Shown here piece by piece: positions 31,390 through 59,219 of a stretch of DNA of 64,000 nucleotides (positions within the stretch are counted from its first letter, which is position 1; every line of letters starts with the position of its first letter). The DNA lies in sequence record NZ_LR134463.1. One strand, given 5' to 3'. This stretch comes from a plasmid. Under the pieces are notes generated by a model. That model did no database searches. It was given only the letters and a program-made list of their open reading frames with translations, and had not been told where the DNA came from. Position numbers and translations under genes: made by a program.

Positions 31390-33848
<2,459 letters not shown>

Positions 33849-33856
33849 GTGACTCC

Positions 33857-34471
33857 ATGACCGATCGCATCGCCCGCATCGAGCGCACCACGAGGGAGTC
33901 CTCCATCGTGGTGGAGATCAACCTCGACGGCACCGGCACCACCGAGATCGCCACCGGCGTCCCCTTCTTCGACCACATGCTCACCGCCTTCGGCCAACAC
34001 GGCAGCTTCGATCTGACGGTGCAGGCCAAGGGCGACATCGAGATCGACGCGCACCACACCGTCGAGGACACGGCGATCGTGCTCGGCCAGGCCATCGCGG
34101 AGGCCCTGGGCGACAAGAAGGGCATCCGCCGCTTCGGCGACTGCTTCATCCCCATGGACGAGACCCTGGCGCACGCCTCCGTGGACGTCTCGGGTCGGCC
34201 GTACGCCGTGCACACCGGTGAGCCGGAGTACCTGGTGCACTCCGTGATCGGCGGCTACCCGGGCGTCCCCTACTCGACGGTGATCAACCGCCACGTCTTC
34301 GAGTCCCTCGCGATGAACGCACGGATCGCGCTGCACGTGCGCGTCCTCTACGGCCGCGACCCGCACCACATCACGGAGGCGGAGTTCAAGGCCGTCGCCC
34401 GCGCCCTGCGCGCCGCCGTCGAGCCGGACCCCCGGGTCACCGGCGTCCCGTCGACCAAGGGCACGCTCTAA
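33857..34471 (+). CDS. hisB: Imidazoleglycerol-phosphate dehydratase
   Basis: IGPD motifs are present ([33 protein letters not shown]). Confidence 0.95.
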
Positions 34472-36509: not shown

Positions 36510-36535
36510 GGGCCCGGGGGCCCCGGGGCGGCCTA
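36510..36535. terminator. GC palindrome (GGGGCCCGGGGGCCCCGGGGCGGCC) between the convergent M61 peptidase and allantoinase genes
   Basis: It is an inverted repeat, GGGGCC/GGCCCC, centred between the two stop codons, and is probably a bidirectional terminator. Confidence 0.45.
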
Positions 36536-37882
36536 GGCCTCGCCGCGGCGCAGCAGGCGCCCGTGCGGGGTCTCGAAGTCGACCTTCTCCCCGCGGAGCC
36601 ACGTGCCGCTGATGACGCCCGCGAGCGCGCGGCCGTCGTACGGCGAGATCGCGTTCTTGTGGTGGAGGTGGTGCACGTCGACGACCTGTGCGGCCTCCGG
36701 CTCGAAGATGGCGAAGTCGGCGTCGAAGCCGAGGGCGATCCGGCCCTTGCGGGTCATACCGGCCAGCTTCGCCGGGTTCGCCGACATCCACTCGAGGACC
36801 TGCTCGAGGGAGATCCCGCGCTTCTTGGCCTCGGTCCAGATCAGTTGCAGGCCCAGCTGGAGCGACGCGACGCCACCCCAGGCCACGCCGAAATCGCCGT
36901 TCTCGACGTCCTTGAGGTCGATCGTCGAGGGGGAGTGGTCGGAGACGATGCAGTCGATCGTGCCGTCCAGCAGCCCTTGCCACAGCAACTCGCGGTTCGA
37001 CGCCTCGCGGATCGGCGGGCAGCACTTGTAGGCGGTGCCGCCGTTCGGGATCTCCTCGGCGAGCAGAGTCAGGTAGTGCGGGCAGGTCTCGACGGTGAGC
37101 TTGACCCCGTCGCGGCGGGCCGTCGCGATCATCGGCAGCGCGTCGGACGACGAGAGGTGCAGGATGTGTGCGCGCGCCCCGGTCCAGCGCGCGCGCTCGA
37201 TGACGTCGGCGATGGCGACGTTCTCCGCGCCGCGGGGCCGCGAGGCCAGGAACTTCGCGTACTTGTCGCCCTCGGGCTCCGGGGCGTGGTCGATCGCGCG
37301 CGAGTCCTCGGCGTGCACGATCATCAGCGAGTCGAACGTGGCCAGCTCGGCCATGTCCTCCTCCATCTCGTCGGCCGTGAGATGCGGGAACTCGTCGACG
37401 CCGGAGTGCAGCAGGAAGCACTTGAAGCCGAACACGCCGTCGTCGTGCAGGCCGCGCAGCTCGCCCTTGTTGCCGGGGACGGCGCCGCCCCAGAAGCCCA
37501 CGTCGATGTGGGCCTTGGGGCCCGCCACCTCGCGCTTGATGCGCAGGGCCTCACGGTCGACGGTGGGCGGGATGGAGTTGAGCGGCATGTCGACGAGCGT
37601 CGTGACGCCGCCGGCGGCGGCGGCCTTGGTCGCGGACTCGAAACCCTCCCATTCGGTGCGCCCGGGCTCGTTGACGTGCACGTGGGTGTCCACGAGGCCG
37701 GGGATCAGCACCTGGTCGTCCGTCAGCTCGATGACCTCGCGGCCCGCCAGGCCGTTGCCGAGCGGCTCGATGGCGACCACCCGGCCGTCGCGGATCCCGA
37801 CCTCCCGGGCCACGGTCCCGGCGGTCGTGACGATGCGGCGGCCGCGGACCACCAGGTCGTACTCGGCGGTGTCGGTGCTCAT
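36533..37882 (-). CDS. allB: Allantoinase (cyclic amidohydrolase)
   Basis: It has the amidohydrolase metal ligands (VDTHVHVNEPGRTEWEG, FKCF, HAED, HILHLSS, DHSP) and the allantoinase-typical KCCPPIR loop. Confidence 0.85.
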   Translation of the reverse strand: MSTDTAEYDLVVRGRRIVTTAGTVAREVGIRDGRVVAIEPLGNGLAGREVIELTDDQVLIPGLVDTHVHVNEPGRTEWEGFESATKAAAAGGVTTLVDMPLNSIPPTVDREALRIKREVAGPKAHIDVGFWGGAVPGNKGELRGLHDDGVFGFKCFLLHSGVDEFPHLTADEMEEDMAELATFDSLMIVHAEDSRAIDHAPEPEGDKYAKFLASRPRGAENVAIADVIERARWTGARAHILHLSSSDALPMIATARRDGVKLTVETCPHYLTLLAEEIPNGGTAYKCCPPIREASNRELLWQGLLDGTIDCIVSDHSPSTIDLKDVENGDFGVAWGGVASLQLGLQLIWTEAKKRGISLEQVLEWMSANPAKLAGMTRKGRIALGFDADFAIFEPEAAQVVDVHHLHHKNAISPYDGRALAGVISGTWLRGEKVDFETPHGRLLRRGEA

Positions 37883-37902: not shown

Positions 37903-37923
37903 AAATTCCGAGTGGCGGAATTT
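37903..37923. promoter_or_regulatory. Perfect palindrome AAATTCCG-agtgg-CGGAATTT in the allB/permease divergent promoter
   Basis: The arms are 8 bp with a 5-bp spacer, and the core is TTCCG-N5-CGGAA. It lies 21 bp upstream of the allB start codon (minus strand). Confidence 0.5.
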
Positions 37924-38071
37924 CGTCTCGATCCTGGGGCCACAGTAGGTGTGACCTGCGCCACCCGTCAAGAACGTCGTTTCCGTCGTGTGACGATCAT
38001 ATTCCGAGATGCGACATGGGCCTTGACAGGTGGGCGGGGATAGGTCTTACTTATCGCTACAAGTGGAACAG

Positions 38072-38092
38072 AATTTCCGCACAACGGAAAAG
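38072..38092. promoter_or_regulatory. Second TTCCG-N5-CGGAA palindrome (AATTTCCG-cacaa-CGGAAAAG), ~40 bp upstream of the NCS1 permease start
   Basis: It shares the core and spacing of the site at 37903-37923, and a third copy occurs at 52753-52782. Confidence 0.5.
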
Positions 38093-38128: not shown

Positions 38129-39670
38129 ATGACAGAAGAACTCACCCCCCGCGTCGCGGCGGAGGCGAATCCGATCCGACTCGGCGACGCGGCCGTCACC
38201 GACGTCCCCGACGTGGACGCCCTGAACCGGCTCAGCGCCGGCCTCTACAACCAGGACCTCGCGCCCACGAAGCGGGCCGGCCGGACCTGGGGCGGCTACA
38301 ACATCTTCACCCTGTGGGCCAACGACGTACACAGCCTCGGGAACTACGCGTTCGCGATCGGCCTGTTCGCGCTCGGCCTCGGCGGCTGGCAGATCCTGCT
38401 GGCCCTCGGACTCGGCGGCGTGTTCCTCTTCGTCCTGCTCAACTTCTCCGGCTTCATGGGGGAGAAGACGGGCGTTCCGTTCCCCGTGATGAGCCGTATC
38501 TCCTTCGGCATCCGCGGGGCGCAGATCCCCGCGCTGATCCGCGGTGTGGTCGCGATCGCCTGGTTCGGCATCCAGACCTACCTGGCCTCGGTGGTGCTGC
38601 GCATCCTCATCATCGCGGTGGCGCCCGGCGCGGCGACGCTCGACGAGAACCGCTTCCTCGGGCTCTCCACCCTCGGCTGGATCTCCTTCCTCGTGCTGTG
38701 GGCGATCCAGCTCGTCATCGTCAGCTACGGCATGGAGATGATCCGCAAGTACGAGGCCTTCGCGGGCCCGGTCATCCTCGTCACGATGGCGGCCCTGGCG
38801 GTCTGGATGCTCAGCAAGGCCGACTGGTCGATCGCCTGGACCACGCCGGAGTCCAAGACGGGGCTCGACATGTGGCTCCAGATCGTCGGCGGTGCCAGCC
38901 TGTGGGTGGCCATCTACGGCACCTTCGTCCTCAACTTCTGCGATTTCACCCGCAACGCGACGTCGAAGAAGTCCATCGTGCGTGGCAACTTCTTCGGCAT
39001 CCCGCTCAACATGCTCCTCTTCGGCGCCATCGTGATCACCCTGGCGGGCGCGCAGTTCCGGATCAACGGCCAGGTCATCGAGTCGCCCGCCGACATCGTC
39101 AAGACGGTGCCGAACACGCTTCTGCTCGTGCTCGCCTGCCTCGCGCTGCTGGTCCTCACCGTCGCCGTGAACCTGATGGCGAACTTCGTGGCGCCGATCT
39201 ACGCGCTCAACAACCTGTTCCCGAAGCACCTGAACTTCCGCAGCGCCGGACTCATCTCCGGTGTCATCGGGCTCGTCATCCTGCCCTGGAACCTCTACAA
39301 CTCGCCCGTCGTGATCACCTACTTCCTGGGCGGCCTCGGTGCGCTGCTCGGCCCGCTGTTCGGCATCGTCATGGCCGACTACTGGCTGATCCGCAAGACC
39401 AGGGTCAACGTGCCCGATCTGTACTGCGATCTGCCCGACGCCCCGTACTTCTACAAGAGCGGTGTGAACCCGCGCGCCGTCATCGCGCTCGTACCCACCG
39501 CCGGTGCGGCGCTGCTCATGGCCTTCGTGCCCGCCTTCCACGTCGTGTCGAACTACTCGTGGTTCATCGGCGCCGGTCTCGGTGCTCTGGTGTACCTCGT
39601 GGTGGCCGACCGCAAGGGCCCGTTCGTCGACGTCTCCGGCGAGCCGATCGCCGTCCCCAGCAAGCACTAG
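38129..39670 (+). CDS. NCS1-family nucleobase:cation symporter (allantoin/hydantoin permease-like)
   Basis: The product has 12 transmembrane helices and is NCS1-like (GYNIFTLWANDVHSLGNYAF, FPVMSRISFGIRGAQIP). It is divergent from allantoinase. I chose the ATG at 38129. Confidence 0.85.
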   Translation: MTEELTPRVAAEANPIRLGDAAVTDVPDVDALNRLSAGLYNQDLAPTKRAGRTWGGYNIFTLWANDVHSLGNYAFAIGLFALGLGGWQILLALGLGGVFLFVLLNFSGFMGEKTGVPFPVMSRISFGIRGAQIPALIRGVVAIAWFGIQTYLASVVLRILIIAVAPGAATLDENRFLGLSTLGWISFLVLWAIQLVIVSYGMEMIRKYEAFAGPVILVTMAALAVWMLSKADWSIAWTTPESKTGLDMWLQIVGGASLWVAIYGTFVLNFCDFTRNATSKKSIVRGNFFGIPLNMLLFGAIVITLAGAQFRINGQVIESPADIVKTVPNTLLLVLACLALLVLTVAVNLMANFVAPIYALNNLFPKHLNFRSAGLISGVIGLVILPWNLYNSPVVITYFLGGLGALLGPLFGIVMADYWLIRKTRVNVPDLYCDLPDAPYFYKSGVNPRAVIALVPTAGAALLMAFVPAFHVVSNYSWFIGAGLGALVYLVVADRKGPFVDVSGEPIAVPSKH

Positions 39671-39679
39671 GAGTCCGGC

Positions 39680-40402
39680 ATGCGCATTCTCGTCGCCAAC
39701 GTCAACACCACCGAGTCCATGACGGCCGCGATCGCCGAATCGGCGCGTTCCGCTGCCTCTCCCGGCACCGAGATCGTCGGAATCACCCCGCGGTTCGGCG
39801 CGGACTCGTGCGAGGGCAACTTCGAGTCCTACCTCGCGGCGATCGCCGTCATGGATGCGATCACGCGGTACGAGGGCCCCTACGACGCAGTGATCCAGGC
39901 CGGCTACGGCGAGCACGGGCGGGAGGGCCTGCAGGAGCTGCTCGAGGTGCCCGTCGTGGACATCACCGAGGCCGCCGCCTCGACCGCGATGTATCTGGGC
40001 CACAAGTACTCCGTGGTCACCACGCTCGACCGGACGGTCCCCCTCATCGAGGATCGGCTCAAGCTGGCCGGACTCGACGCCCGCTGCGCCTCGGTGCGCG
40101 CGTCCGGCCTCGGCGTCCTGGAGCTCGAGTCCGCGCCCGAGCGGGCCGTCGAGGCCATCGTCGCCCAGGCGCGCGACGCCGTCGAGCGCGACCACGCCGA
40201 GGTGATCTGCCTCGGCTGCGGCGGCATGGCGGAGCTGGAGGAGAAGGTCTCCGCGGCGACGGGCGTCCCCATCGTCGACGGTGTCCGGGCCGCCGTGACG
40301 ATCGCCGAGGGGCTCGTCCGGATGGGGCTGAAGACCTCCAAGGTGCGTACTTACGCCCCGCCGCGACCCAAGGTCGTGACGGGCTGGCCGTTCGAGAACT
40401 GA
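39680..40402 (+). CDS. Asp/Glu/hydantoin racemase-family protein (candidate allantoin/hydantoin racemase)
   Basis: The 240-aa product carries the two catalytic Cys regions of the family (GADSCEGN, ICLGCGGM) and lies 10 bp downstream of the NCS1 permease. Confidence 0.7.
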   Translation: MRILVANVNTTESMTAAIAESARSAASPGTEIVGITPRFGADSCEGNFESYLAAIAVMDAITRYEGPYDAVIQAGYGEHGREGLQELLEVPVVDITEAAASTAMYLGHKYSVVTTLDRTVPLIEDRLKLAGLDARCASVRASGLGVLELESAPERAVEAIVAQARDAVERDHAEVICLGCGGMAELEEKVSAATGVPIVDGVRAAVTIAEGLVRMGLKTSKVRTYAPPRPKVVTGWPFEN

Positions 40403-42680: not shown

Positions 42681-43502
42681 CTACAGGACGATCTGGCGGT
42701 TGACGTCCTTGTAGAGCAGGTAGCGGAAGTTCGACGGTCCGCCGGCGTAGCAGGCCTGCGGGCAGAAGGCGCGCAGCGACATGTAGTCGCCCTCCTGGAC
42801 CTCGACCCAGTCGCCGTTGAGGCGGTAGACGGCCTTGCCCTCGAGGACGAACAGGCCGTGCTCCATGACGTGCGTCTCCGCGAAGGGGATCGACGCGCCC
42901 GGCTCGAACGTCACGATGTTGCAGTGCATGTCGTACGCGAGGTCCTGCGGGTCCAGGATGCGGGTGGTGCGCCACTTGTTGTCGGTGCCCGGCATCGGCG
43001 ACGGCTCGATGTCGCGCTCGTTGCCGACGGCGACGCGTGGGGTGTGCCCGGCGAGCGGCTCGTAGCGCTTGCGGATCCACTGGAAGACGGCGGCACCGTC
43101 GGCGGTGTTGGCGACCGCCCAGGGCGTGCCCGCGGGGATGTAGGCGTAGCCGCCCTCGGTGAGCGTGTGCGCCTCGCCGTCGATGGTCACCTGCAGGGCG
43201 CCCTGGGTGATGAGCAGGAAGCTCTGTACCTCGGGCTGGGGCTCCGGGGCCTCGGAGCCACCACCGGGGGAGACCTCGACGATGGACTGCGCGAACGTGG
43301 TCGAGCCGCCCGCGACGGGGCGGTTGAGCACCCACGCGCGGGTGTTCGTCCAGCCGGGGAAGACGGAGGTCACGATGTCGCGCATGACGCCGCGCGGGAT
43401 CACGGTGTAGGCCTCGGTCACGATGGCACGGTCCGTGAGGAGGTCCGTCTGCGGCGGGTGGCCGCCCTGCGGCGAGTAGTAGACGGGTGCGGACGAGCTC
43501 AT
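42681..43502 (-). CDS. (S)-Ureidoglycine aminohydrolase (bicupin, AllE/YlbA-like)
   Basis: It has two cupin barrels (FLLITQGALQVTIDGEAHTLTEGGYAYIPAG and HVMEHGLFVLEGKAVYRLNGDWVEVQEGDYMSL). The 273-aa size is typical, and its ATG at 43502 overlaps the upstream gene's stop. Confidence 0.75.
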   Translation of the reverse strand: MSSSAPVYYSPQGGHPPQTDLLTDRAIVTEAYTVIPRGVMRDIVTSVFPGWTNTRAWVLNRPVAGGSTTFAQSIVEVSPGGGSEAPEPQPEVQSFLLITQGALQVTIDGEAHTLTEGGYAYIPAGTPWAVANTADGAAVFQWIRKRYEPLAGHTPRVAVGNERDIEPSPMPGTDNKWRTTRILDPQDLAYDMHCNIVTFEPGASIPFAETHVMEHGLFVLEGKAVYRLNGDWVEVQEGDYMSLRAFCPQACYAGGPSNFRYLLYKDVNRQIVL

Positions 43503-44773
43503 CGGGTCTCCTCGGGCTGGATGGTGGTGGGGCGGTTCAGGGCGAGGTCGCGGACCGTCTCGACGGTGACCTCGGCGGCGGACGCGACCTCGGCGGCGGT
43601 GACCGCCCCGCAGGTGACGCCGCGATGGATGAAGGACGCGAGCGCGCGGGCCGTGGCGGGCTCGTCGAGGATCGCGGAGTCGATGCGGTGCACGTAGTTC
43701 CGCAGTCGCGTCGCGGCGGCGGGGAAGCCGTCGCGGTAGAAGGCGTAGGTCGCCAGGAATCGCGTGACGAGCTGGGCCGGGTGCAGGTCCCAGCCCTGGT
43801 AGATGCCGCGTTCGAGGTGCCGGCGCACGAGGCGCGCGTGCAGCCGCCACGCGTCGGCGACGTGCGCCGGGTCGCCGATCGGCAGGATGTTGGTCGAGCC
43901 GTCGGACATGTGCACGCCCGTCCCGGCGACGGCGAGCTGCATGACGTTCTTCGCGTGGTCGGCGGCCGGGTGCTCCATCGACTGGTACTGCGCGGCGATG
44001 CCGAGCGAGGCCGAGTAGTCGTAGGTGCCGTAGTGCAGAGAGGTCACGCGGCCGTCCGCGGCGTGCAACAGGGTGGCGACGGGCGCGGTGCCGTCGGCCC
44101 CGAGGATCACCTGCGGGGTCTCGACCTGCACCTCGAAGCGCAGGCGCCGCTCGTCCAGGCCGAGCGCGCCCTCCAGGGCGCGGCTCGCGTCCACCATGGC
44201 CTCGACTTGGCCGACCGTGGTGACCTTCGGCAGCGTGATGGTCAGGCCCTCGGGCAAGGGGCCGCCGGCGGCGAGGCCGCTGACGAAGAGGTCGAGGGTG
44301 CGCAGGCCTCGCGCCCGGACCGGTGCCTCGAAGCACTTGAACCGGATGCCGACGAACGGCGGCGCCGATCCCTCGCGGACGGCGACGGTGACGGCATCGA
44401 CGGCACGCGCCACGTCGGCGTCCTCCGCCTCGTCGCCGCGGTCGCCGTAGCCGTCCTCGAAGTCGAGCCGCAGATCCTCGATGGGTTCCTCGGTGAGCTT
44501 GCGCCGCACCAGCTCCGGGAGGTCGGGATCGTCCAGCCCGACGGTGCGCGCGACCTCCGCGAGCCCGCCTGCGGCATCGGCGGCCGCGAGGGCCTGCTCG
44601 CCCCATTCCCGCGCGGTCGCCGGGGTGAACCGGTCCGCCGGGAGGTAGACGGTGTGCACCGGTTGGCGGCGGCCGTCGTCGCCCGGGTAGTTCCGGGCCA
44701 GGAGCTCGTCGGTGGCGGCCAGCCGACGCTCGATCGCGGCCAGGGCGTCGTCGGTGAGCGAGCGGCTGGGCAT
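43499..44773 (-). CDS. CitE/HpcH/malate-synthase-superfamily (beta/alpha-barrel lyase-like) protein of unknown specificity
   Basis: The 424-aa product has a CitE-like core. It opens with HTVYLPADR, has an acidic metal site DLRLDFEDGYG, a PKV motif ITLPKVTT, a barrel strand VQVETPQVIL, and the block LHYGTYDYSASLGI. It carries N- and C-terminal extensions and is translationally coupled to the downstream ureidoglycine aminohydrolase gene. Confidence 0.55.
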   Translation of the reverse strand: MPSRSLTDDALAAIERRLAATDELLARNYPGDDGRRQPVHTVYLPADRFTPATAREWGEQALAAADAAGGLAEVARTVGLDDPDLPELVRRKLTEEPIEDLRLDFEDGYGDRGDEAEDADVARAVDAVTVAVREGSAPPFVGIRFKCFEAPVRARGLRTLDLFVSGLAAGGPLPEGLTITLPKVTTVGQVEAMVDASRALEGALGLDERRLRFEVQVETPQVILGADGTAPVATLLHAADGRVTSLHYGTYDYSASLGIAAQYQSMEHPAADHAKNVMQLAVAGTGVHMSDGSTNILPIGDPAHVADAWRLHARLVRRHLERGIYQGWDLHPAQLVTRFLATYAFYRDGFPAAATRLRNYVHRIDSAILDEPATARALASFIHRGVTCGAVTAAEVASAAEVTVETVRDLALNRPTTIQPEETR

Positions 44774-44795
44774 GGGACCTCCGTCTGATCTAAAT

Positions 44796-44810
44796 GGAAA
44801 AGAAATTCCG
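44796..44810. promoter_or_regulatory. GGAAAAGAAATTCCG element upstream of the CitE-like/UGlyAH operon
   Basis: It is a GGAA/TTCC-type partial palindrome related to the TTCCG/CGGAA sites of the island, and lies ~25 bp upstream of the operon start codon. Confidence 0.3.
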
Positions 44811-44880
44811 TATGGTGGAGTCTACGCGGGTCCTGTGGTCCGCACAAGGATTTTCGCAGCGTGGTCCCGGCCGCGGAGAG

Positions 44881-46164
44881 CTACGCGGCGACCTCGTCGC
44901 CGCCGATCCAGACGCGCGCGACGTCGGCAGGCGTGGCCAGCGAGAAGATCTTCGCGAGGGCGTTCTCGGCCGATTCGGCGTGGCGCAGGCCCACGTCGAG
45001 CGGGTGGCCGGCCGTCGGACGCAGGAGGATCGCGTCGAACTGCCGCCCGACGGACAGGTCGCCCACCTCGTCGAGCCCCAGAGCGGTCGCGCCGGCGCGG
45101 GTGGCGAGGTGCAACAGGTGCGCCGCGGTGAGCGGCACGCCGTCTCCCTGGAGCAACTGCTGCATGAAGTAGGCCTGCAGGCCTTCCTTGAAGAGCGAGA
45201 AGCCGCTGCCCGCACCGACATCGGTGCCGAGGGCCACGGTGACGCCGTGGTCGAGGTGGCGGCGGAGCGGGAAGGAGCCGCTGGCGAGCGCGGAGTTGGA
45301 GGTGGGGCAGTGGGCGACCGACGCGCCGGTCGAGGCCATGAGTGCGAGCTCGGAATCGGTCGGGTGCGCGTTGTGCGCGAGCACCGCGCGCTCGTGGATG
45401 AGCCCGTGCCGGTGGTAGGTGTCGAGGTAGTTCGCCGATCCCGGGAACTGCTCGATGACCGCCGCGATCTCGGCGGGGTTCTCGTTGATGTGGGAGGTGA
45501 ACCAGAGGCCGGGCACATCGGCCGCGAGCGCCGCCCCGCTCTCCAACATGCCGGGTGACGTCGAGTAGGAGAAGCGCGGCGTCACCGCGTACCGGAGGCG
45601 ACGATGCCCGTGCCAGCGCTCGGCGAGCTTGCGGCCCTCGTCGTACGACCGCGCCGGCGTGCTGAGCAGCGGCTCCGGCAGGTTGCGGTCGCTGGTCACC
45701 AGACCGGCTGTGACGCGCACCCCCACCCGGTCGGCCTCGGTGAACAGCGCGTCGACCGCGTCCGTGAAGTGCGACCCGAAGACGAGCGCGGTCGTCGTGC
45801 CGGCGGCGGTGAGGCCGGTGAGGAACTCGCGGGCGACGGTGCGCGCGTACTCGGCGTCCGCGAGCTTGCACTCCTCGGGCAGGGCGCACTGATCGAGCCA
45901 GTCCAGCAGCGGCATCCCGAGGCCGCCGATGGCCCGGATCTGCGGGTAGTGCACGTGGGTGTCGACCATGCCGGGAAGGAGGACGCCGTCGCGCAGGTCG
46001 ACGACCTCGGCGTCCGGGTGGCGTTCCGTGACCGTGCGGAAGGCGCCGCGATCGACGATCACGCCCGCCTCGACCGCGATGCCGGCGTCGTCGTGCGAGC
46101 GCAGCTCACCCCCGCTGAAGGGGTCGTCGGGCGTGTCCAGGACGCGGCAGCGGTAGATGGTCAT
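44881..46164 (-). CDS. guaD: Guanine deaminase
   Basis: It is an amidohydrolase (MVDTHVHYPQ, HINENPAE, CPTSNSALASG, LGTDVGAG) with the conserved N-terminus MTIYRCRVLDTP, and lies downstream of xdhC. Confidence 0.85.
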   Translation of the reverse strand: MTIYRCRVLDTPDDPFSGGELRSHDDAGIAVEAGVIVDRGAFRTVTERHPDAEVVDLRDGVLLPGMVDTHVHYPQIRAIGGLGMPLLDWLDQCALPEECKLADAEYARTVAREFLTGLTAAGTTTALVFGSHFTDAVDALFTEADRVGVRVTAGLVTSDRNLPEPLLSTPARSYDEGRKLAERWHGHRRLRYAVTPRFSYSTSPGMLESGAALAADVPGLWFTSHINENPAEIAAVIEQFPGSANYLDTYHRHGLIHERAVLAHNAHPTDSELALMASTGASVAHCPTSNSALASGSFPLRRHLDHGVTVALGTDVGAGSGFSLFKEGLQAYFMQQLLQGDGVPLTAAHLLHLATRAGATALGLDEVGDLSVGRQFDAILLRPTAGHPLDVGLRHAESAENALAKIFSLATPADVARVWIGGDEVAA

Positions 46165-46970
46165 GAGGGGTCTCCTTGCACGGATGAGGGGAAGCGGGCG
46201 AGCAGGTCCGCGGCCACACTCACGGCGATGGTCGCCGGGTGCTTGCCGCCCAGGGTGCTCAGCCCGATGGGGGATTGGATGGTCCGGATGGTCGCGGCGT
46301 CGTGACCGGCGTCGGCGAGCATGGCGCGGAACCGGGTCCACTTCGCGGCGGAACCGATCAGTCCGACGCTGCCGAGGCCGGGGGTGCGCAGCACCTGGTC
46401 GCAGAGGCTGAAGTCCTCCGCGTGGTCGTGCGTCATGATGAGCACGTGGCAGCCCGGAGGAAGTTCCTCCAGGACCTCCTCGGGCAGCATCGAATGGCGC
46501 AGGTGCACGGTCGCCTCACCGGGCTCCAGACCGCGGGCGGCCTCGAGCTGCTCGGGGCGGGAGTCGGTGAGGTACAGCTCGACGTCGTGGCGCGCGAGGA
46601 TGCGGGCGAGTTCCAGGCCGACGTGGCCGACCCCGAAGATCGCGACGGCCGGAACCACCGGCAGCGGCTCGAACAAGAGGACCACCTCGCCTCCGCAGCA
46701 TTGGCGCCCGTGTTGATTGCGGGCCTTGTCGTTCAATCGCAGGGTGAGCGTCTCGGGCGTGGTGACCGCGTCCCGCAGTAGTTCGCGGGCCCGGTCGATC
46801 GCCGTCAGCTCCAGGTTGCCGCCGCCGATCGTGCCGAATTCGCCGTCGGCGGTGGCGATCATCTTCGCGCCCGCCTCGCGGGGCGCGTGCCCGCGGACGC
46901 CGATCTGGGTGATCAGGACCGCGGGGACGCGCTGCCGACGGAGGCGGGCGGCGTCGCCCAGCCAGGTCAT
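46161..46970 (-). CDS. xdhC: Xanthine dehydrogenase accessory/maturation protein
   Basis: Its N-terminus is XdhC-like (AVLITQIGVRGHAPREAGAKM), and a Rossmann-like region follows (VAIFGVGHVGLELARILA). It overlaps the guaD start. Confidence 0.85.
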   Translation of the reverse strand: MTWLGDAARLRRQRVPAVLITQIGVRGHAPREAGAKMIATADGEFGTIGGGNLELTAIDRARELLRDAVTTPETLTLRLNDKARNQHGRQCCGGEVVLLFEPLPVVPAVAIFGVGHVGLELARILARHDVELYLTDSRPEQLEAARGLEPGEATVHLRHSMLPEEVLEELPPGCHVLIMTHDHAEDFSLCDQVLRTPGLGSVGLIGSAAKWTRFRAMLADAGHDAATIRTIQSPIGLSTLGGKHPATIAVSVAADLLARFPSSVQGDPS

Positions 46971-46977
46971 GGCGGGC

Positions 46978-49418
<2,441 letters not shown>

Positions 49419-49422
<4 letters not shown>

Positions 49423-50909
49423 GACAGCTCCCCTCGGGCCGTGGTCTCGGCGAACAGCTTCTCGAGCGACCGGCCGAGCATCGCGACGCGGTAGGCGCCG
49501 GACGCACGGTGATCGTCCATCGGGGTGCCCTCGGCCCGCAGCACATCGGCCGCGGCACGAACGGTCTCCTCCGACCACGGGCGGCCCACGAGGGCCTGCT
49601 CGGTGGCGGTCGCGCGGAGCGGGGTCGCGGCCACGCCGCCGAGGCCGATCGCGGCCCGGGTGATCGTGCCCGCGTCGACGGTGACCGCGAAGGCGACGGC
49701 GACGCTGGAGATGTCGTCGAAACGGCGCTTGGCGATCTTGTGGAACGCGGTGAGCGGGCTCAGCGGCAGCGGGATCCGTATCGCCTTGATGAGTTCGTCG
49801 GGCCGGCGCACCGTCGCGCGGTAGCCGGTGAAGTACTCCGCGAGCGGGACGGTGCGCTCGCCGTCGCGCGAGGCCAGTACCAGGCGCGCGTCCAGGGCGA
49901 GCAACGCGGGCGGGGTGTCGCCGATCGGCGAGCCCGTCCCGAGGTTGCCGCCCAGTGTCGCGGCGTTGCGGATCAGGCGCGAGGCGAACTGTGGAAAGAC
50001 CTGGGCGAGCAGGGGGACGCGGCCGTCGAGGCGGCGCTCGATCTCGGACAGCGTGAGCGCCGCTCCGATGTCGAGTTCGTCGTCGTTCCAGTGCAACTCA
50101 CGGAGCTCGGGCAGGCGGTCGATGGCCACCACGAGGGGTTCGCGGCGCCCCTTGAGGTTCACGTCGACGCCGAAGTCGGTGGACCCGGCGACGAGGACCG
50201 GGGATTCCCCGTCGGCGAGGAGATCGAGGACCTCGTCGAGTCCGGCGGGCCGGACGAAGCGGCCCTGCGGGCCGGCGACCTCGGTGTGGGCGGCGGCGGG
50301 TGCCGGCGCGGTACGGCGGGCGGCGAGCGGGTCGTCGGGCGCGGGGGCCGCGGGGAGGCCGTAGGCGGCGTCACGGATGGGTCGGTAGCCGGTGCAGCGG
50401 CACAGGTTCCCGGACAGGGAGTGCAGGTCGAAGCCGTTGGGCCCGTGCTCCTCGTCGTGAGCGGGGCATGCGGCGTCGCCATCGGCCCGCGGGTTCGACG
50501 CGGCCCGATCGGGTCGGTAGAACTCGGCCGCCATGCTGCAGATGAAGCCCGGCGTGCAGTAGCCGCACTGCGAGCCGCCGCGGAGCGCCATCGCGGCCTG
50601 CACCGGGTGCAGGTCGTCGGGCCCGCCGAGTCCTTCGGAGGTGATCACCTCCTGGTCCGCCAAGGCTGCTGCGGGGGTCAGGCAGGCGTTGATGGCGGTC
50701 CACCGCGTCCGGTCGTCGGGGGCATCGGGGTCGCCTGGGCGGGCGACGAGGATCGAGCAGGCGCCGCACTCACCCTCGGCGCAGCCCTCCTTGGCTCCGG
50801 TGAGGCCCTGGTCGCGCAGCCAATCGAGGGCACTCGTGTGCGCCGGGCCGGTGAAGGGTCGGGATCGACCGTTCACGGTCACATGACATCCGGTCAGCGT
50901 TTCGGTCAC
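49419..50909 (-). CDS. xdhA: Xanthine dehydrogenase small subunit ([2Fe-2S] + FAD-binding)
   Basis: It has ferredoxin-type cysteine clusters (CAEGECGACS, CGYCTPGF, CRCTGY) and the FAD/CO-dehydrogenase-flavoprotein domain (GSTDFGVDVN, LGGNLG). I chose the GTG at 50909 (VTETLTGCHVTVNG), but the start is uncertain. Confidence 0.85.
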
Positions 50910-51061
50910 CGCTGCATCCCTACTGAACCGCCGCACGCGGTTCGGACAGGCATGGTTTGCGAGGCTGAGCTGGACCGCTGGTTTTCCATGCGAACACGAT
51001 CCAGTGCATTTCATGATAGGTGACGGGGATCACATCGGGAAGGGTATTTGGAATCTTCTTT

Positions 51062-51084
51062 CCGCATCACGGAGTGTGATGCGG
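51062..51084. promoter_or_regulatory. Perfect palindrome CCGCATCAC-ggagt-GTGATGCGG upstream of xdhA
   Basis: It is a 9-bp inverted repeat with a 5-bp spacer, lying ~150 bp upstream of the xdhA start and 35 bp downstream of the NCS2 permease stop. It could be an operator or a terminator. Confidence 0.4.
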
Positions 51085-51118
51085 GAGCCGTTCCGGCTCG
51101 ACTCTGCGTCGTTGCAGG

Positions 51119-52627
51119 TCAGCCGCCGATCAACGCGGTGATCGGTCCTCGGACGAAGTAGAGGATGAATCCGATCGAGACCGCCCACAGTAGCCAGTGC
51201 GCCTTCTGTCCGCGACCGCTGAGGACGCTCAGGAGCGCCCAGGTGATGAAGCCCACGCCGATGCCGTTGGCGATCGAGTAGGTCAGCGGCATGGTGACGA
51301 TCGTGAGGAAGGCGGGGAGGGCCACCGAGAAATGGGTGAAGTCGATCTCGCGGATCTGCGCCACCATCATCGATCCGACGACCACCAGGGCGGCCGCGCC
51401 GACCTCCATCGGGATCACGCCGATGAGGGGAGCGAAGAACATCGAGCCCAGGAACAGCACGCCGGTCACGCAGGCTGCGAGACCCGTGCGCGCACCCTCT
51501 GCGATCCCGGACGCCGAGTCGACGAAGACGGTGTTCGACGAGCCGGAGGTCGCGCCGCCGGCGACCGCGCCCATGCCCTCGATGACGAAGGCCGAGCGGA
51601 TGCGCGGGAACGTCCCGTCGGGCTGGCCGACGCCCGCCTGGCGCGCCAGGCCCGTCATGGAGCCCATCGCGTCGAAGAAGTTGGTGAACACCAGGGTGAA
51701 CACCAACATCGTGGCCGCTAGTGCGCCGACCCGCTCGAAGGCTCCGAACAGGTCGAATTGGCCGATCAGGCTGAAGTCGGGGAGCGCGACGATCTGACCG
51801 GGCAGCTCAGGGGCGCTGAGGTTCCAGCCCTTGGGGTCCGGGTGGCTCGGGTCGCCGACGGTGCCGAGCTTGGCGAAGTGCTGGATGACGATCGCGGCGA
51901 TCGTCGCGACGATCATGCCGATGAGGATGGCGCCGGGGACGCGGCGCGAGACCAGGACGGCGATGAGCAGCAGGGCGAAGATGAAGACGGCGGTCGGGAT
52001 CGCGTCGATCGACCCGTCGTGGCCGAGCTGGACCGGCGGGCCGGCCGGGGTGCGCGTCACGAAGCCGGAGTTCACGAAGCCGATGAAGGCGATGAACAGG
52101 CCGATGCCGACCGTGATCGCGGTCTTCAGCTCGGCCGGGACCGCGCGGAAGATCGCCGTCCGGATGCCGGTGGCCCCCAGGAGCACGATGATCACGCCGT
52201 TGATGATGACCAGGCCCATGGCCTCCGGCCACGTGACGTCCTTGACCACCGCGACCGCGAGGAAGGAGTTCATGCCGAGGCCCGCGGCGAGCGCGAACGG
52301 AAGTCGCGCGACCACGCCGAACAGGATCGTGATGACGCCCGCCGTCAGGCCGGTGACCGCCGTGACCTGCACGAATCCGAGGGTGCCCTGCGCCGCGTCG
52401 GAGGAGCTGCTCAGGATGAGCGGGTTGAGCACGACGATGTAGGCCATCGCGACGAACGTGACGAGCCCGCCCCGGATCTCGCGGGGGATCGTCGAGCCGC
52501 GGCGGGTGATCTCGAAGAAGCGGTCCAGGAACGGCGCGCCGGCGCGTGCCGGGCCGTCGGTGCGTTCGGTGGGCGCCGGGGGTTCGACGTGTTCGTCGGC
52601 CCCGTTCTGCTCTTGCTGGCTGGTCAT
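51119..52627 (-). CDS. NCS2-family nucleobase permease (AzgA/PbuG-like guanine/hypoxanthine or xanthine transporter)
   Basis: The product is ~500 aa with multiple TM helices and an AzgA-like pattern (GGLVTFVAMAYIVVLNP, NFFDAMGSMTGLARQAG, AFVIEGMGAVAGG). I chose the ATG at 52627 (MTSQQEQ). Confidence 0.85.
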   Translation of the reverse strand: MTSQQEQNGADEHVEPPAPTERTDGPARAGAPFLDRFFEITRRGSTIPREIRGGLVTFVAMAYIVVLNPLILSSSSDAAQGTLGFVQVTAVTGLTAGVITILFGVVARLPFALAAGLGMNSFLAVAVVKDVTWPEAMGLVIINGVIIVLLGATGIRTAIFRAVPAELKTAITVGIGLFIAFIGFVNSGFVTRTPAGPPVQLGHDGSIDAIPTAVFIFALLLIAVLVSRRVPGAILIGMIVATIAAIVIQHFAKLGTVGDPSHPDPKGWNLSAPELPGQIVALPDFSLIGQFDLFGAFERVGALAATMLVFTLVFTNFFDAMGSMTGLARQAGVGQPDGTFPRIRSAFVIEGMGAVAGGATSGSSNTVFVDSASGIAEGARTGLAACVTGVLFLGSMFFAPLIGVIPMEVGAAALVVVGSMMVAQIREIDFTHFSVALPAFLTIVTMPLTYSIANGIGVGFITWALLSVLSGRGQKAHWLLWAVSIGFILYFVRGPITALIGG

Positions 52628-52752: not shown

Positions 52753-52782
52753 GCGTTCCGCCCATCGGAAATGTGATTCCGA
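52753..52782. promoter_or_regulatory. TTCCG-cccat-CGGAA-atgtga-TTCCG: a third copy of the TTCCG-N5-CGGAA palindrome in the permease/IclR divergent region
   Basis: It matches the core and spacing of the two sites in the allB/NCS1 divergent promoter. It lies 126 bp upstream of the NCS2 permease start, in the 460-bp region shared with the IclR gene. Confidence 0.5.
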
Positions 52783-53086
52783 TCACGTCGAGTGAAGCAT
52801 GCGCTCCCAGGCCTGTCAAGCACATGTTCTGCATGGTTCTCCGCGACTTCCGCCGCGCGACAACACTTGCCGGTCCGGCCTTATGTGTTGACCGGTCGCC
52901 GGTCGAGGCGAGTGCTTCAGACGGTGTTCCGTATCGTGGCGGATGACTTTCGGTCAGCAGTCGTCCGTCGCGCCATGTGGTCGGCGGCGGATCGACATCG
53001 ATACCGCAATACGGAACGCAGGATGGAATTGTGCGCGTACCGTCGTGATTGGAACAGCAAACGACCAGACGTCCGGGGAGGCGATC

Positions 53087-53851
53087 ATGGCGGGGAAGTC
53101 CACCTCAGGTGTGCAGTCGGTGGAGCGTGCGTTCGAACTGCTCGAGCTCATGGGGCGCGCCGGCGGCGAGTGCTCGCTCAGTGAGCTGTCGGCGGGCACG
53201 CCGCTGCCCCCGCCGACGATCCACCGGTTGCTGCGCACGCTCGTGGGCATCGGCTACGTGCGGCAACTGCCCAACCGGCGCTACGCGCTCGGGCCCCGGC
53301 TGATCCGGCTCGGGGAGGTCGCCAACCGCCAGCTCGGCGCCGTCGCCGTGCCCGTGCTGCAGGCTCTCGTCGACGAACTCGAGGAGACGGCGAGCCTCGC
53401 GGTCCTCGACGGCGACATGGTGATCTACACCGGCCAGGTGCCCTCGCAGCACAGCATGCGCACGAACAACGAGGCCGGCCGACGGGTGAACCTGCACAAC
53501 AGCGGCGTCGGCAAGGCGGTCCTCGCGGAACTCGACGACGCCCGCATCGTCAAGCTCGTCGGGCAGGCCGGGATCCCGGCACCCACGCCCAATAGTGTGA
53601 GCACCCTGTCCGGGGTCTTCGCCGAGGTGGAGAAGGTCCGCGCCCGCGGCTACTCGATCGACGACGAGGAGCAGGAGGTGGGCGTGCGCTGCTACGCGAT
53701 GGCGGTACCGGGCGCCCCGACCCCGATGGCGGTCGGCATCTCCGGCCCCGTCTCCCGCCTGAGCGACGACTTCGTCGACCGCGCGATCCCCGCCCTCGAG
53801 CGCGCCACCGGCATCATCTCCGACGCCCTGATCGGCGCCCGCGAGATCTGA
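53087..53851 (+). CDS. IclR-family transcriptional regulator (candidate regulator of the purine/allantoin island)
   Basis: It has an N-terminal wHTH (GVQSVERAFELLELM..LSELSAGTPLPPPTIHRLLRTLV) and a C-terminal IclR effector domain (GVGKAVLAEL, YSIDDEEQEVGVRCYAMAV). Confidence 0.85.
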   Translation: MAGKSTSGVQSVERAFELLELMGRAGGECSLSELSAGTPLPPPTIHRLLRTLVGIGYVRQLPNRRYALGPRLIRLGEVANRQLGAVAVPVLQALVDELEETASLAVLDGDMVIYTGQVPSQHSMRTNNEAGRRVNLHNSGVGKAVLAELDDARIVKLVGQAGIPAPTPNSVSTLSGVFAEVEKVRARGYSIDDEEQEVGVRCYAMAVPGAPTPMAVGISGPVSRLSDDFVDRAIPALERATGIISDALIGAREI

Positions 53852-58285: not shown

Positions 58286-58339
58286 CCAGCGTAATACTGC
58301 GATGCGGTGCCTTCTCCGGGCCGATTAGGCTGGACGGCA

Positions 58340-58968: not shown

Positions 58969-59219
58969 GCGGCAAGCGCGGGCTCTCCCTGGGCCGCCTC
59001 GCCCTGTTCTCCCTCGGCGCGGCCGTCGCGGTGCTCGGCGTGGCGGTTCTCCTGCTCAACGTGCTGCGCCCGAGCCCGGCCGTCGGGCTGCTCATCGTCG
59101 CCGTGGGGCTCGTCGGCGCGGTCGCGGCGATGGGGATCGTCTCCAACCGGATCGTCGGGCGCGCCGTCGGGAACGCCGAGGACCGGGAGCCCGGAAAGTC
59201 GGATGACACGACGCACTAG
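58965..59219 (+). CDS. Possible small membrane protein (84 aa) between hisH and hisA
   Basis: Its GTG overlaps the hisH stop (GTGA), and the ORF ends 10 bp before hisA. It has two hydrophobic helices. It could instead be a GC-bias artefact. Confidence 0.3.

What the first reader, a model, noticed from the sequence alone, without database searches (positions are those of the whole stretch)
37903..38092. A TTCCG-N5-CGGAA palindrome recurs in the divergent promoters of the island and is a candidate operator for the local IclR regulator
Two near-identical palindromes flank the 246-bp allantoinase/NCS1-permease divergent region: AAATTCCG-agtgg-CGGAATTT and AATTTCCG-cacaa-CGGAAAAG. A third copy, TTCCG-cccat-CGGAA followed by a half-site TTCCG, lies in the 460-bp NCS2-permease/IclR divergent region at 52753-52782. 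A related GGAAAAGAAATTCCG element sits upstream of the CitE-like/UGlyAH operon at 44796-44810.

The spacing and core of the first three sites are conserved. All sit within ~20-130 bp of start codons of catabolic operons. An IclR-family gene at 53087 is the only regulator in the island, and allantoin regulons in other bacteria are controlled by IclR-type AllR. The motif here differs from the E. coli AllR box.
Basis: seen in the sequence. Interest (0 to 1): 0.65.

Follow-up and report, generated by a model that had tools for sequence, protein, structure and literature searches.

The report
AllR-type operator boxes, Tsukamurella purine island
The repeated TTCCG-N5-CGGAA palindromes are real, conserved binding boxes for the neighbouring IclR-family regulator of allantoin and purine breakdown, but the same motif has already been described for the orthologous actinobacterial AllR regulators, so this is a well-supported but ordinary new instance.

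Summary
There are three exact TTCCG-N5-CGGAA sites against 0.07 expected, all in divergent promoter regions of a purine/allantoin island in a Tsukamurella genome.

I fetched 80 loci holding orthologues of the regulator. The motif (true consensus aATTCCrCAwtGyGGAATt) is the only conserved sequence in the allB<>NCS1 and DUF6986<>IclR spacers of Gordonia, Mycolicibacterium and Jongsikchunia. Variant boxes occur in Micrococcaceae.

A weight matrix trained only on non-Tsukamurella sites puts its top five window hits on island promoters.
- 44806 (DUF6986)
- 51060 (xdhA)
- 53002 (autoregulatory)

Auxiliary half-sites lie exactly 21 bp from the matching half of the palindrome. The boxes overlap or sit just downstream of inferred −10 elements, which suggests repression.

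It is not new, though. Suvorova & Gelfand 2021 list the same motif for the S. coelicolor allR regulon and for M. gilvum, Rhodococcus and Arthrobacter orthologues. S. coelicolor AllR has been characterised biochemically.

What is specific here is a guanine deaminase–xdhCBA–NCS2 block. It split the ancestral two-operator spacer and carries operators of its own. Binding and the effector remain untested.

The parts
37906..37920 (.). Operator O_allB, TTCCGAGTGGCGGAA. Its centre is 31 bp upstream of the allantoinase start codon.
   Evidence: Exact match; weight matrix 19.7 bits; positional orthologue of the conserved allB-proximal box AATTCCTCATCGTGGAA in other genera.
37942..37971 (-). Inferred allB promoter: -35 TTGACG (reverse complement of 37966-37971), 18-nt spacer, -10 TACTGT (reverse complement of 37942-37947). 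The operator then lies about +15 to +29 from the inferred transcription start.
   Evidence: Read from the sequence. The equivalent TTGACT-17nt-TAGAGT is conserved in 34 Mycolicibacterium-type spacers. Inference only; the transcription start is not mapped.
38002..38016 (.). Weak extra site TTCCGAGATGCGACA (2 mismatches).
   Evidence: weight matrix 4.0 bits; partly conserved in T. strandjordii. Function doubtful.
38023..38028 (+). Inferred -35 (TTGACA) of the NCS1 permease-racemase operon.
   Evidence: Invariant TTGACA followed by the conserved CTTACTTA block in all aligned genera. Inference.
38064..38068 (.). Auxiliary half-site TGGAA, exactly 21 bp from the CGGAA half of O_NCS1.
   Evidence: Sequence; 21-bp phasing enriched across loci, 107 against a background of 2.9.
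38075..38089 (.). Operator O_NCS1, TTCCGCACAACGGAA. Its centre is 47 bp upstream of the NCS1 permease ATG.
   Evidence: Exact match; 21.3 bits; orthologue of the conserved CTTCCGCACAGTGGAAT box.
44795..44799 (.). Auxiliary half-site TGGAA, 21 bp from the TGGAG half of O_DUF6986.
   Evidence: Conserved as AATGGAAG in T. strandjordii.
44806..44820 (.). Operator O_DUF6986, TTCCGTATGGTGGAG. Its centre is 40 bp upstream of the start of the DUF6986-UGlyAH operon.
   Evidence: Top weight-matrix hit in the window, 21.8 bits. Orthologue of the AATTCCACATTGTGGAGTTTAG box, conserved at 90% or more in 57 distinct spacers.
44819..44824 (-). Inferred -10 (TAGACT) of the DUF6986 operon, overlapping the operator by 2 bp.
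   Evidence: The invariant GTTTAG fused to the box in other genera reads TAAACT on the gene strand; the window has TAGACT. Inference.
51049..51053 (.). Auxiliary half-site TGGAA, 21 bp from the CGGAG half of O_xdhA.
   Evidence: Conserved (C/T)GGAAT in all 13 Tsukamurella spacers.
51060..51074 (.). Operator O_xdhA, TTCCGCATCACGGAG. Its centre is 53 bp upstream of the xdhA start.
   Evidence: One-mismatch hit; 14.1 bits; conserved in all clade members while the sequence to its 3' side diverges.
52756..52770 (.). Operator O_NCS2, TTCCGCCCATCGGAA. Its centre is 136 bp upstream of the NCS2 permease start.
   Evidence: Exact match; 8.8 bits; conserved across the clade.
52777..52781 (.). Auxiliary half-site TTCCG, exactly 21 bp from the TTCCG half of O_NCS2.
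52815..52820 (-). Inferred -35 (TTGACA on the minus strand) of the NCS2 permease promoter. O_NCS2 lies just downstream of it.
   Evidence: CTGTCAAG is invariant in the clade alignment. Inference.
52927..52941 (.). Weak site TTCCGTATCGTGGCG, 75 bp upstream of O_allR. This is the position that the DUF6986-proximal operator holds in genomes with the undivided spacer.
   Evidence: 4.9 bits; partly conserved in the clade. Similarity to O_DUF6986 is limited to 13 nt. A possible auxiliary or relic operator.
53002..53016 (.). Autoregulatory operator O_allR, TACCGCAATACGGAA. Its centre is 78 bp upstream of the regulator's ATG.
   Evidence: One-mismatch hit; 13.4 bits; positional orthologue of ATTCCGTATTGCGGAA, found upstream of nearly every orthologue.
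53087..53851 (+). IclR-family regulator (actinobacterial AllR type), 254 aa.
   Evidence: PF09339 at 61.7 bits and PF01614 at 105.4 bits. 65-100% identical orthologues across Corynebacteriales and Micrococcaceae. HTH and wing invariant.
36533..37882 (-). allB allantoinase (regulon member).
   Evidence: TIGR03178 at 558 bits against a cut-off of 358.
38129..40402 (+). NCS1 (allantoin-type) permease at 38129-39670 and Asp/Glu/hydantoin-family racemase at 39680-40402 (regulon members).
   Evidence: PF02133 and PF01177; allantoin permease models below cut-off; synteny conserved in about 55 loci.
42681..44773 (-). DUF6986 (43499-44773) and (S)-ureidoglycine aminohydrolase bicupin (42681-43496), forming one operon.
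   Evidence: PF22484 at 563 bits; NF008376 at 466 bits against a cut-off of 338; the pair is adjacent in all loci that cover the region.
44881..52627 (-). Clade-specific block on the minus strand, in order of transcription: NCS2 permease (51119-52627), xdhA (49419-51014), xdhB (46978-49578), xdhC (46161-46970), guanine deaminase (44881 to about 46341). It lies between O_DUF6986 and O_allR.
   Evidence: Pfam; guanine deaminase NF006679 at 477 bits against a cut-off of 351. The block is present in L001-L011, L013 and L014, and absent in T. strandjordii, T. soli and other genera. It splits the ancestral spacer.

Best explanation
The palindromes are operators of the adjacent IclR-family regulator, the actinobacterial AllR type. 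I count six clear operators in this window: O_allB, O_NCS1, O_DUF6986, O_xdhA, O_NCS2 and O_allR. Each is a 15-17 bp inverted repeat, aTTCCR-N5-YGGAAt. Four of them have an extra half-site exactly two helical turns (21 bp) from the matching half of the palindrome. That is the layout expected if one dimer of an IclR tetramer sits on the palindrome and the second dimer makes a weaker contact beside it.

The boxes overlap the inferred -10 (DUF6986) or lie just downstream of inferred promoters (allB, NCS1, NCS2). Bound protein would therefore block initiation or early elongation. I take the regulator to be a repressor of the allantoin genes, of the xanthine dehydrogenase, guanine deaminase and NCS2 permease block, and of its own gene. 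It would be released by a pathway intermediate, most likely allantoate and/or glyoxylate by analogy.

Shown here: the existence, statistical excess and cross-genus conservation of the boxes, their linkage to the regulator gene, and the 21-bp half-site phasing. Inferred: binding by this protein, the sign of regulation, the promoter positions and the effector.
For: - Three exact sites against 0.07 expected. Both one-mismatch sites are also in island promoters.
- A matrix trained only on 197 unique non-Tsukamurella sites gives its top five window hits in island promoter regions. Seven hits reach 10 bits against 0.63 expected.
- Every orthologous locus has paired boxes in the allB<>NCS1 and DUF6986<>IclR spacers. 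These are the only blocks conserved at 90% or more there.
- Clade-specific boxes at xdhA and NCS2 are conserved while flanks diverge.
- 270 of 294 hits at or above 12 bits in 1.6 Mb lie in these promoters, and none lies inside an orthologous gene.
- The box stays upstream of the regulator even where its neighbour has changed.
- The regulator's HTH and wing are invariant across genera, and it is the only transcription factor in the cluster.
- The 21-bp auxiliary half-site appears 107 times against a background of 2.9.
- A -10-like TAAACT/TAGACT is fused to the DUF6986 box, and a -35/-10 pair lies upstream of the allB box.
- The same motif is published for the SCO6243/6246/6201/6206, Mflv_3169/3173, RHA1 and Arthrobacter sites (PMC8222616 Table S2).
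- From my own knowledge: Navone et al. 2015 (PMID 26187964) showed that S. coelicolor AllR is a repressor that binds such promoters and is released by allantoate and glyoxylate.
Against: - There are no binding or expression data for this protein.
- Orthology to S. coelicolor SCO6246 was not tested directly. It rests on the published grouping of the Mflv sites with the SCO sites.
- The consensus promoter scan found no sigma-70-type promoter, so the promoter positions are my own reading of conserved hexamers.
- The matrix training sites were pre-selected with the TTCCR-N5-YGGAA pattern, so the core columns and the first two categories are partly circular. The unbiased alignments are not.
- O_allR in this clade has a degenerate TACCG half.
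Confidence: 0.85

Rival explanations
1. The boxes are bound by the local IclR protein, but it acts as an activator or dual regulator rather than a simple repressor. Some IclR-family members do this.
For: IclR-family regulators can activate (general knowledge; the PMC8222616 introduction). O_NCS2 is 136 bp and O_allR 78 bp from their start codons. No promoter was detected by the consensus scan, so positions relative to transcription starts are unproven.
Against: At the best-defined promoter, the box is fused to a conserved -10-like hexamer. At allB, NCS1 and NCS2 the boxes lie downstream of conserved -35/-10-like elements. From my own knowledge, the characterised S. coelicolor AllR and E. coli AllR are both repressors.
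Confidence: 0.1
2. The palindromes are recognised by a different transcription factor encoded elsewhere, for example another IclR paralogue with a TTCC-N7-GGAA-type motif such as NdgR/LtbR, or a global nitrogen regulator. On this view the local IclR gene is merely a neighbour.
For: TTYCR-N5-YGRAA is a generic IclR-family motif class, and the NdgR/LtbR consensus KTYCRSMWYSYGRRM is similar. Cross-recognition is therefore conceivable.
Against: The box travels with this regulator gene in all 80 loci, including after rearrangement. Strong hits are almost confined to this gene cluster in 1.6 Mb. The published reconstruction assigns the motif to this orthologous group.
Confidence: 0.04
3. The repeats are chance palindromes, or structural elements (RNA hairpins or terminators) in AT-richer intergenic DNA, with no protein-binding role.
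For: The scan flagged 38090..38074 as a terminator-like hairpin followed by a T-run. Intergenic DNA is AT-richer than the 71% GC genome average, which raises the chance frequency of TTCC/GGAA.
Against: No shuffle of 100 reaches 3 exact matches. The half-site sequences themselves, not just their pairing, are invariant across genera, while the 5-nt spacers vary. The sites lie in divergent promoter regions where nothing needs terminating. There is no Rfam family in the island. A 5-bp stem is too weak to be a stable hairpin.
Confidence: 0.01

Closest known systems
Streptomyces coelicolor AllR (SCO6246) and its operators at allR/allB, aceB1 (SCO6243), SCO6201 and hyi (SCO6206)
   Same: An IclR-family regulator next to allantoin catabolic genes. 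The 17-bp motif is the same type (e.g. TTTCCACAAaGCGGAAt, cTTCCgTAATaCGGAAA). There is a site upstream of its own gene, and sites are arranged with 21-bp phasing. From my own knowledge of Navone et al. 2015, it is a repressor released by allantoate and glyoxylate.
   Different: - In Streptomyces the second element at 21 bp is a full, if weaker, site. Here it is usually a single half-site, and full sites are 67-246 bp apart.
- The target set differs. There it is allantoicase, malate synthase aceB1 and gcl/hyi. Here it is UGlyAH, DUF6986, racemase, NCS1 permease and, in this clade, xdhCBA, guanine deaminase and NCS2 permease.
- From my own knowledge, xdhABC in S. coelicolor is controlled by the TetR-type XdhR.
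- Direct orthology was not tested here.
Predicted sites of the same orthologous group in Mycolicibacterium gilvum (Mflv_3169, Mflv_3173), Rhodococcus jostii RHA1 (ro02579/80), M. smegmatis MSMEG_5478 and Arthrobacter (Achl/Arth/AAur), from Suvorova & Gelfand 2021, PMC8222616 Table S2
   Same: These are the same boxes at the same promoters. Mflv_3169 -42 (gTTCCACcATGaGGAAt) is the allB-proximal box. Mflv_3173 -47 (acTCCACgATGtGGAAt) is the DUF6986-proximal box with its TGGAG half. Their 69-bp spacing matches my 67-73 bp.
   Different: No Tsukamurella entries appear in the held part of the tables, which were cut when stored. The xdh/NCS2 operators and the split spacer are specific to the Tsukamurella clade. 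That study is computational only.
Escherichia coli AllR (allantoin/glyoxylate regulon repressor)
   Same: The same protein family and the same pathway logic: an IclR-type repressor of allantoin utilisation that senses a small pathway acid. The C-terminal domain aligns to 1TF1 at E 3e-19.
   Different: It is not an orthologue: NF007548 gives 107 bits against a cut-off of 406. The operator is different, KTTGGAAWAWTWTTCCAAC, with half-sites in the opposite order (GGAA..TTCC). There is no match in the window within 3 mismatches.
IclR-family operators with an external extra half-site (PcaU, PobR, HmgR)
   Same: A palindrome plus an additional direct half-site repeat. That repeat is required for binding in PcaU, as summarised in PMC8222616.
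   Different: The half-site sequence differs (GTNCG type), as do the pathways (aromatic catabolism). The exact 21-bp register seen here was measured only computationally.

Membership tests
IclR family of transcription factors | N-terminal winged HTH (PF09339) | tested here: met
   61.7 bits against a cut-off of 22, residues 11-62.
IclR family of transcription factors | C-terminal IclR effector-binding domain (PF01614) | tested here: met
   105.4 bits against a cut-off of 24, residues 79-244. Aligns to the IclR, AllR and PcaR structures.
Actinobacterial AllR regulon (S. coelicolor AllR type) | Operator is a 15-17 bp palindrome of TTCCR-N5-YGGAA type with an inner CA..TG | tested here: met
   Window sites. 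Consensus AATTCCACAATGTGGAATT from 197 sites against the published TTTCCACAATGCGGAAA-type sites.
Actinobacterial AllR regulon (S. coelicolor AllR type) | Sites upstream of allantoin catabolic genes | tested here: met
   allB (TIGR03178 met), UGlyAH (NF008376 met), NCS1 permease and racemase operons all carry boxes.
Actinobacterial AllR regulon (S. coelicolor AllR type) | Site upstream of the regulator's own gene (autoregulation) | tested here: met
   53002-53016, and its orthologues in nearly all 80 loci.
Actinobacterial AllR regulon (S. coelicolor AllR type) | Second site or half-site in 21-bp register | tested here: met
   Auxiliary half-sites at 38064, 44795, 51049 and 52777. Offset -21 is enriched, 107 against 2.9. 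Published Streptomyces pairs are 21 bp apart.
Actinobacterial AllR regulon (S. coelicolor AllR type) | Regulator is the orthologue of SCO6246 | not tested
The link is indirect: the Mflv sites are listed in the same motif block as the SCO sites, and Mycolicibacterium orthologues are 77-81% identical to the window protein.
Actinobacterial AllR regulon (S. coelicolor AllR type) | Protein binds the boxes in vitro and is released by allantoate or glyoxylate | not testable with these tools
   Needs EMSA or footprinting. The source paper (PMID 26187964) is not held.
Enterobacterial AllR (NCBIfam NF007548 equivalog) | Score at or above the curated equivalog cut-off | tested here: not met
   107.3 bits against a cut-off of 406. 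BhcR (156 against 350) and IclR (136 against 380) are also below cut-off.
Enterobacterial AllR (NCBIfam NF007548 equivalog) | Operator TTGGAAWAWTWTTCCAA | tested here: not met
   0 matches within 3 mismatches in 64 kb.

The most novel reading that the evidence does not exclude
In the T. tyrosinosolvens/ocularis/hominis/pseudospumae clade, a guanine deaminase-xdhCBA-NCS2 permease block was inserted into the ancestral two-operator DUF6986<>allR spacer. Each new promoter acquired its own AllR box with a 21-bp auxiliary half-site.

On this reading, one allantoate/glyoxylate-sensing repressor governs the whole route from guanine or xanthine uptake to glyoxylate. In Streptomyces that job is split between XdhR and AllR.

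The regulon's most constant member, DUF6986, would be an uncharacterised malate-synthase/CitE-like enzyme that disposes of the glyoxylate end product.
Probability: 0.4. Interest if true: 0.4.

Novelty: new member of a known kind. Interest (0 to 1): 0.25.

Why it matters
The result gives a confident, testable regulon map for purine and allantoin catabolism in Tsukamurella, an opportunistic pathogen genus with almost no regulatory data. The map comprises six operators, four or five transcription units and one regulator.

It also shows how a regulon grows. A catabolic block inserted into a divergent promoter carries the same operator type at its own promoters.

The general biology is already established in Streptomyces and predicted for related actinobacteria: an IclR-type AllR repressor with a TTCC-N7-GGAA box. 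A specialist would therefore not be surprised. The more promising lead is the side observation that the uncharacterised DUF6986 enzyme is a core, operator-embedded member of this regulon.

Tried and rejected
- **Consensus promoter scan.** The sigma-70 scan of both divergent regions found nothing. Promoter positions are therefore my reading of conserved hexamers, not tool output.
- **Terminator-like hit.** The hit at 38090..38074 is the operator palindrome itself, inside a divergent promoter. I rejected it as a terminator.
- **Off-island matrix hits.** 35489 (12.5 bits) and 5368 (10.4 bits) lie in coding sequence and have TTCAC rather than TTCC halves. I rejected both as chance; 0.63 hits are expected.
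- **Duplication at 52927.** I asked whether this site is a duplicated copy of O_DUF6986. Similarity is limited to 13 nt, so duplication is not supported. The site may be a relic or a weak auxiliary site.
- **DNA looping.** Centre-to-centre distances are 169 bp here, about 130 bp in Mycolicibacterium, and 67-73 bp in the other spacer. They do not share a helical phase, so I make no looping claim.
- **E. coli AllR box.** Absent.
- **Known RNA families.** None in the island.
- **Navone et al. 2015.** The paper could not be opened by DOI or PMC id.
- **Literature searches.** Searches for work on this regulator in mycobacteria or other actinobacteria found nothing beyond PMC8222616. One search was badly framed and useless.
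- **Table S1 of PMC8222616.** This table pairs each transcription factor with its sites. It is truncated in the held copy, so the regulator assignment of the Mflv and SCO sites could not be read directly.
Full report
**What is in the sequence.**
The window is 71% GC and comes from a Tsukamurella of the tyrosinosolvens/ocularis/hominis group. The IclR protein is 100% identical to those of T. ocularis and T. hominis. The DUF6986 protein is 100% identical to a T. tyrosinosolvens protein.

- TTCCGAGTGGCGGAA at 37906-37920
- TTCCGCACAACGGAA at 38075-38089
- TTCCGCCCATCGGAA at 52756-52770, followed by TTCCG at 52777

Exact matches to TTCCG-N5-CGGAA number 3 against 0.07 expected, and no shuffle of 100 reaches 3. 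Allowing one mismatch adds only two sites.

**Gene context.**
Pfam and NCBIfam give the following genes.

| Coordinates | Strand | Gene |
|---|---|---|
| 36533-37882 | − | allB allantoinase (above its equivalog cut-off) |
| 38129-39670 | + | NCS1 permease |
| 39680-40402 | + | Asp/Glu/hydantoin-type racemase |
| 40442-42610 | + | DctA-like and MTAP-like reading frame |
| 42681-43496 | − | (S)-ureidoglycine aminohydrolase bicupin |
| 43499-44773 | − | DUF6986 |
| 44881 to ~46341 | − | guanine deaminase |
| 46161-51014 | − | xdhC, xdhB, xdhA |
| 51119-52627 | − | NCS2 permease |
| 53087-53851 | + | IclR-family regulator |

No other HTH protein was found in or beside the island.

**Comparative test.**
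One scan of species-representative genomes with the regulator returned 80 loci with about 10 kb of flank. They come from Tsukamurella, Gordonia, Jongsikchunia, Mycolicibacterium/Mycobacterium, Zhihengliuella, Kocuria and Arthrobacter, and the regulators are 68-100% identical to the window protein.

tblastn with the island's proteins shows the usual layout outside the window's clade. It is allB(−) <> NCS1-racemase(+), then UGlyAH-DUF6986(−) <> IclR(+).

Each of the two divergent spacers holds two boxes in essentially every genome:
- An IclR-proximal ATTCCGTATTGCGGAA, centred mostly 60-80 bp from the start.
- A DUF6986-proximal AATTCCACATTGTGGAGTTTAG, 67-73 bp further on.
- An allB-proximal AATTCCTCATCGTGGAA.
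- An NCS1-proximal CTTCCGCACAGTGGAAT, about 130 bp from the allB-proximal box.

Unbiased MAFFT alignments of 57 and 34 distinct spacers show these boxes as the main blocks conserved at 90% or more in otherwise unalignable sequence. The only other conserved blocks are promoter-like hexamers.

The real consensus is therefore TTCCR-N5-YGGAA with an inner CA..TG, not strictly CGGAA.

**Back to the window with an independent matrix.**
I built a palindromised 19-bp weight matrix from 197 unique sites, all from non-Tsukamurella loci. The window hits were:

| Position | Score (bits) | Location |
|---|---|---|
| 44804 | 21.8 | DUF6986 promoter |
| 38073 | 21.3 | NCS1 promoter |
| 37904 | 19.7 | allB promoter |
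| 51058 | 14.1 | xdhA promoter |
| 53000 | 13.4 | regulator's own promoter |
| 35489 | 12.5 | coding sequence, TTCAC halves |
| 5368 | 10.4 | coding sequence, TTCAC halves |
| 52754 | 8.8 | NCS2 promoter |

Seven hits reach 10 bits against 0.63 expected. The two coding-region hits are consistent with that chance level.

The operator is TTCCGTATGGTGGAG at 44806-44820, and it is the positional orthologue of the box with the conserved TGGAG half.

Across all 80 loci (1.6 Mb), 270 of 294 hits at or above 12 bits lie in the allantoin or regulator promoter regions. None lies inside an orthologous coding gene. This count is partly circular for the training regions, but it shows how rare the motif is elsewhere.

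**Clade-specific rearrangement.**
L001-L011, L013, L014 and the window have a guanine deaminase-xdhCBA-NCS2 block between DUF6986 and the regulator. T. strandjordii (L012) and T. soli (L015) keep the undivided spacer.

The window's DUF6986-upstream spacer aligns to the left part of the L012 spacer. Its IclR-upstream spacer aligns to the right part. So the block split an ancestral two-operator region.

The inserted block has its own boxes, at xdhA (51060) and NCS2 (52756). Both are conserved in all 13 clade spacers, including the most divergent (L013), while neighbouring sequence diverges.

A weak TTCCGTATCGTGG at 52927 sits 75 bp from O_allR, the ancestral distance. Its similarity to O_DUF6986 does not extend beyond 13 nt.

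**Architecture.**
Four of the six window operators have an extra half-site exactly 21 bp from the matching half of the palindrome. These are TGGAA at 38064, 44795 and 51049, and TTCCG at 52777.

Over all strong sites in the loci, YGGAA occurs at offset −21 in 107 of 586 oriented contexts, against a mean of 2.9 per offset. It also matches the 21-bp site pairs published for Streptomyces.

The DUF6986 box is fused to an invariant GTTTAG. That reads TAAACT on the gene strand, and TAGACT in the window at 44824..44819, so it looks like a −10 hexamer overlapping the operator.

Upstream of the allB box, a TTGACT-17nt-TAGAGT pair is conserved on the minus strand. The window has TTGACG-18nt-TACTGT. That places the box at about +15 to +29.

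Conserved TTGACA hexamers precede the NCS1 and NCS2 boxes.

All promoter assignments are inference, because the consensus scan found none. If correct, they point to repression by promoter occlusion or a roadblock.

**The regulator.**
It has both IclR-family domains. Residues 8-75, which cover the HTH and wing, are almost invariant across all genera. That fits the conserved box.

It is not an orthologue of E. coli AllR: 107 bits against a cut-off of 406. Its best NCBIfam scores, all below cut-off, are to BhcR and IclR, both glyoxylate-sensing to my knowledge. The E. coli AllR box is absent, and no Rfam family lies in the island.

**Comparison with what is known.**
Suvorova & Gelfand 2021 (PMC8222616) define a generic IclR motif class, WTTYCRY-W3-RYGRAAW. 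In Table S2 they list 17-mers of exactly this type. The genes covered are:
- S. coelicolor SCO6243 (aceB1), SCO6246 (allR), SCO6201 and SCO6206
- other Streptomyces species and Saccharopolyspora
- MSMEG_5478
- RHA1_ro02579/80
- Mflv_3169 and Mflv_3173
- several Arthrobacter genes

The Mflv sites are the allB-proximal and DUF6986-proximal boxes I found independently, with the same 69-bp spacing.

From my own knowledge, Navone et al. 2015 (PMID 26187964) showed that S. coelicolor AllR represses these promoters and is released by allantoate and, more weakly, glyoxylate. The paper is not held.

The finding is therefore a new instance, in a new genus and with an enlarged target set, of a described regulator-operator pair. 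Direct orthology to SCO6246 was not tested.

**Verdict.**
Novelty is low, a new member of a known kind, and I score interest at 0.25.

**Side observation followed up.**
DUF6986 is the regulon's most constant member. It has no solved relative by sequence and no literature.

An AlphaFold model (pLDDT 82, pTM 0.81) matches the CitE, CLYBL and malate-synthase TIM barrels. That suggests a glyoxylate/acyl-CoA enzyme, analogous in role to aceB1 in the Streptomyces AllR regulon.

Noticed in passing
window 43499-44773 (-): DUF6986 is the gene most tightly tied to the AllR-type regulator: it is divergent from it in most genomes and its -10 is embedded in an operator. Yet it is uncharacterised. It has no PDB relative by sequence and no papers, and all homologues are named 'aldolase' or 'DUF6986'. 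An AlphaFold model (pLDDT 82, pTM 0.81) matches the putative lyase 3qqw, malate synthases A/G/H, CLYBL and citramalyl-CoA lyase. It is a candidate glyoxylate-condensing enzyme of the actinobacterial allantoin pathway.
   Followed up: partly
window 40442-42610 (+): A DctA-type C4-dicarboxylate transporter (aa 9-433) and an MTAP/PNP-family phosphorylase (aa 480-720) read as one 722-aa ORF with no stop between them. The junction carries GAAGGAG-N6-ATG at 41850, so the phosphorylase probably also starts independently. This is either a lost stop codon, i.e. a real fusion, or a sequence error.
   Followed up: partly
window 31390-34471 and 57970-59963: Everything between about 34.5 and 57.9 kb lies between hisD-hisC-hisB and hisH-hisA. 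This includes the M61 peptidase, the purine/allantoin island, a Zn-ADH, a DUF7373 protein and an esterase-domain protein. The stretch interrupts what is normally a contiguous actinobacterial histidine operon.
   Followed up: no
window 51021-51033: An inverted repeat, GTGAC-GGGGA-TCAC, lies between the xdhA start codon and the xdhA operator. It is conserved in most of the Tsukamurella clade (GGTGACGGGGGTCACAT). It could be a second regulator's site or a 5'-UTR element.
   Followed up: no
window 52846-52866 and 53023-53055: Further clade-conserved blocks lie in the NCS2<>IclR spacer. One is CTTCCGCCGYGCGACAAC, a 2-mismatch box. The others are ATGGAAT and TGGAAC, lone YGGAA half-sites between O_allR and the regulator's start. 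An ATGGAA block is also conserved at a different distance in Mycolicibacterium.
   Followed up: no
L050, L054, L065, L075-L077, L080 (Micrococcaceae loci): In Zhihengliuella, Kocuria and Arthrobacter the regulator is about 3 kb away from DUF6986-UGlyAH. Strong boxes of up to 26.7 bits occur at additional, unannotated promoters, e.g. L080 4462 and 4534, and L065 14764. L080 has NCS2 and xdhB-like genes downstream of the regulator, with a 1-mismatch box between them. The regulon is evidently larger there.
   Followed up: no
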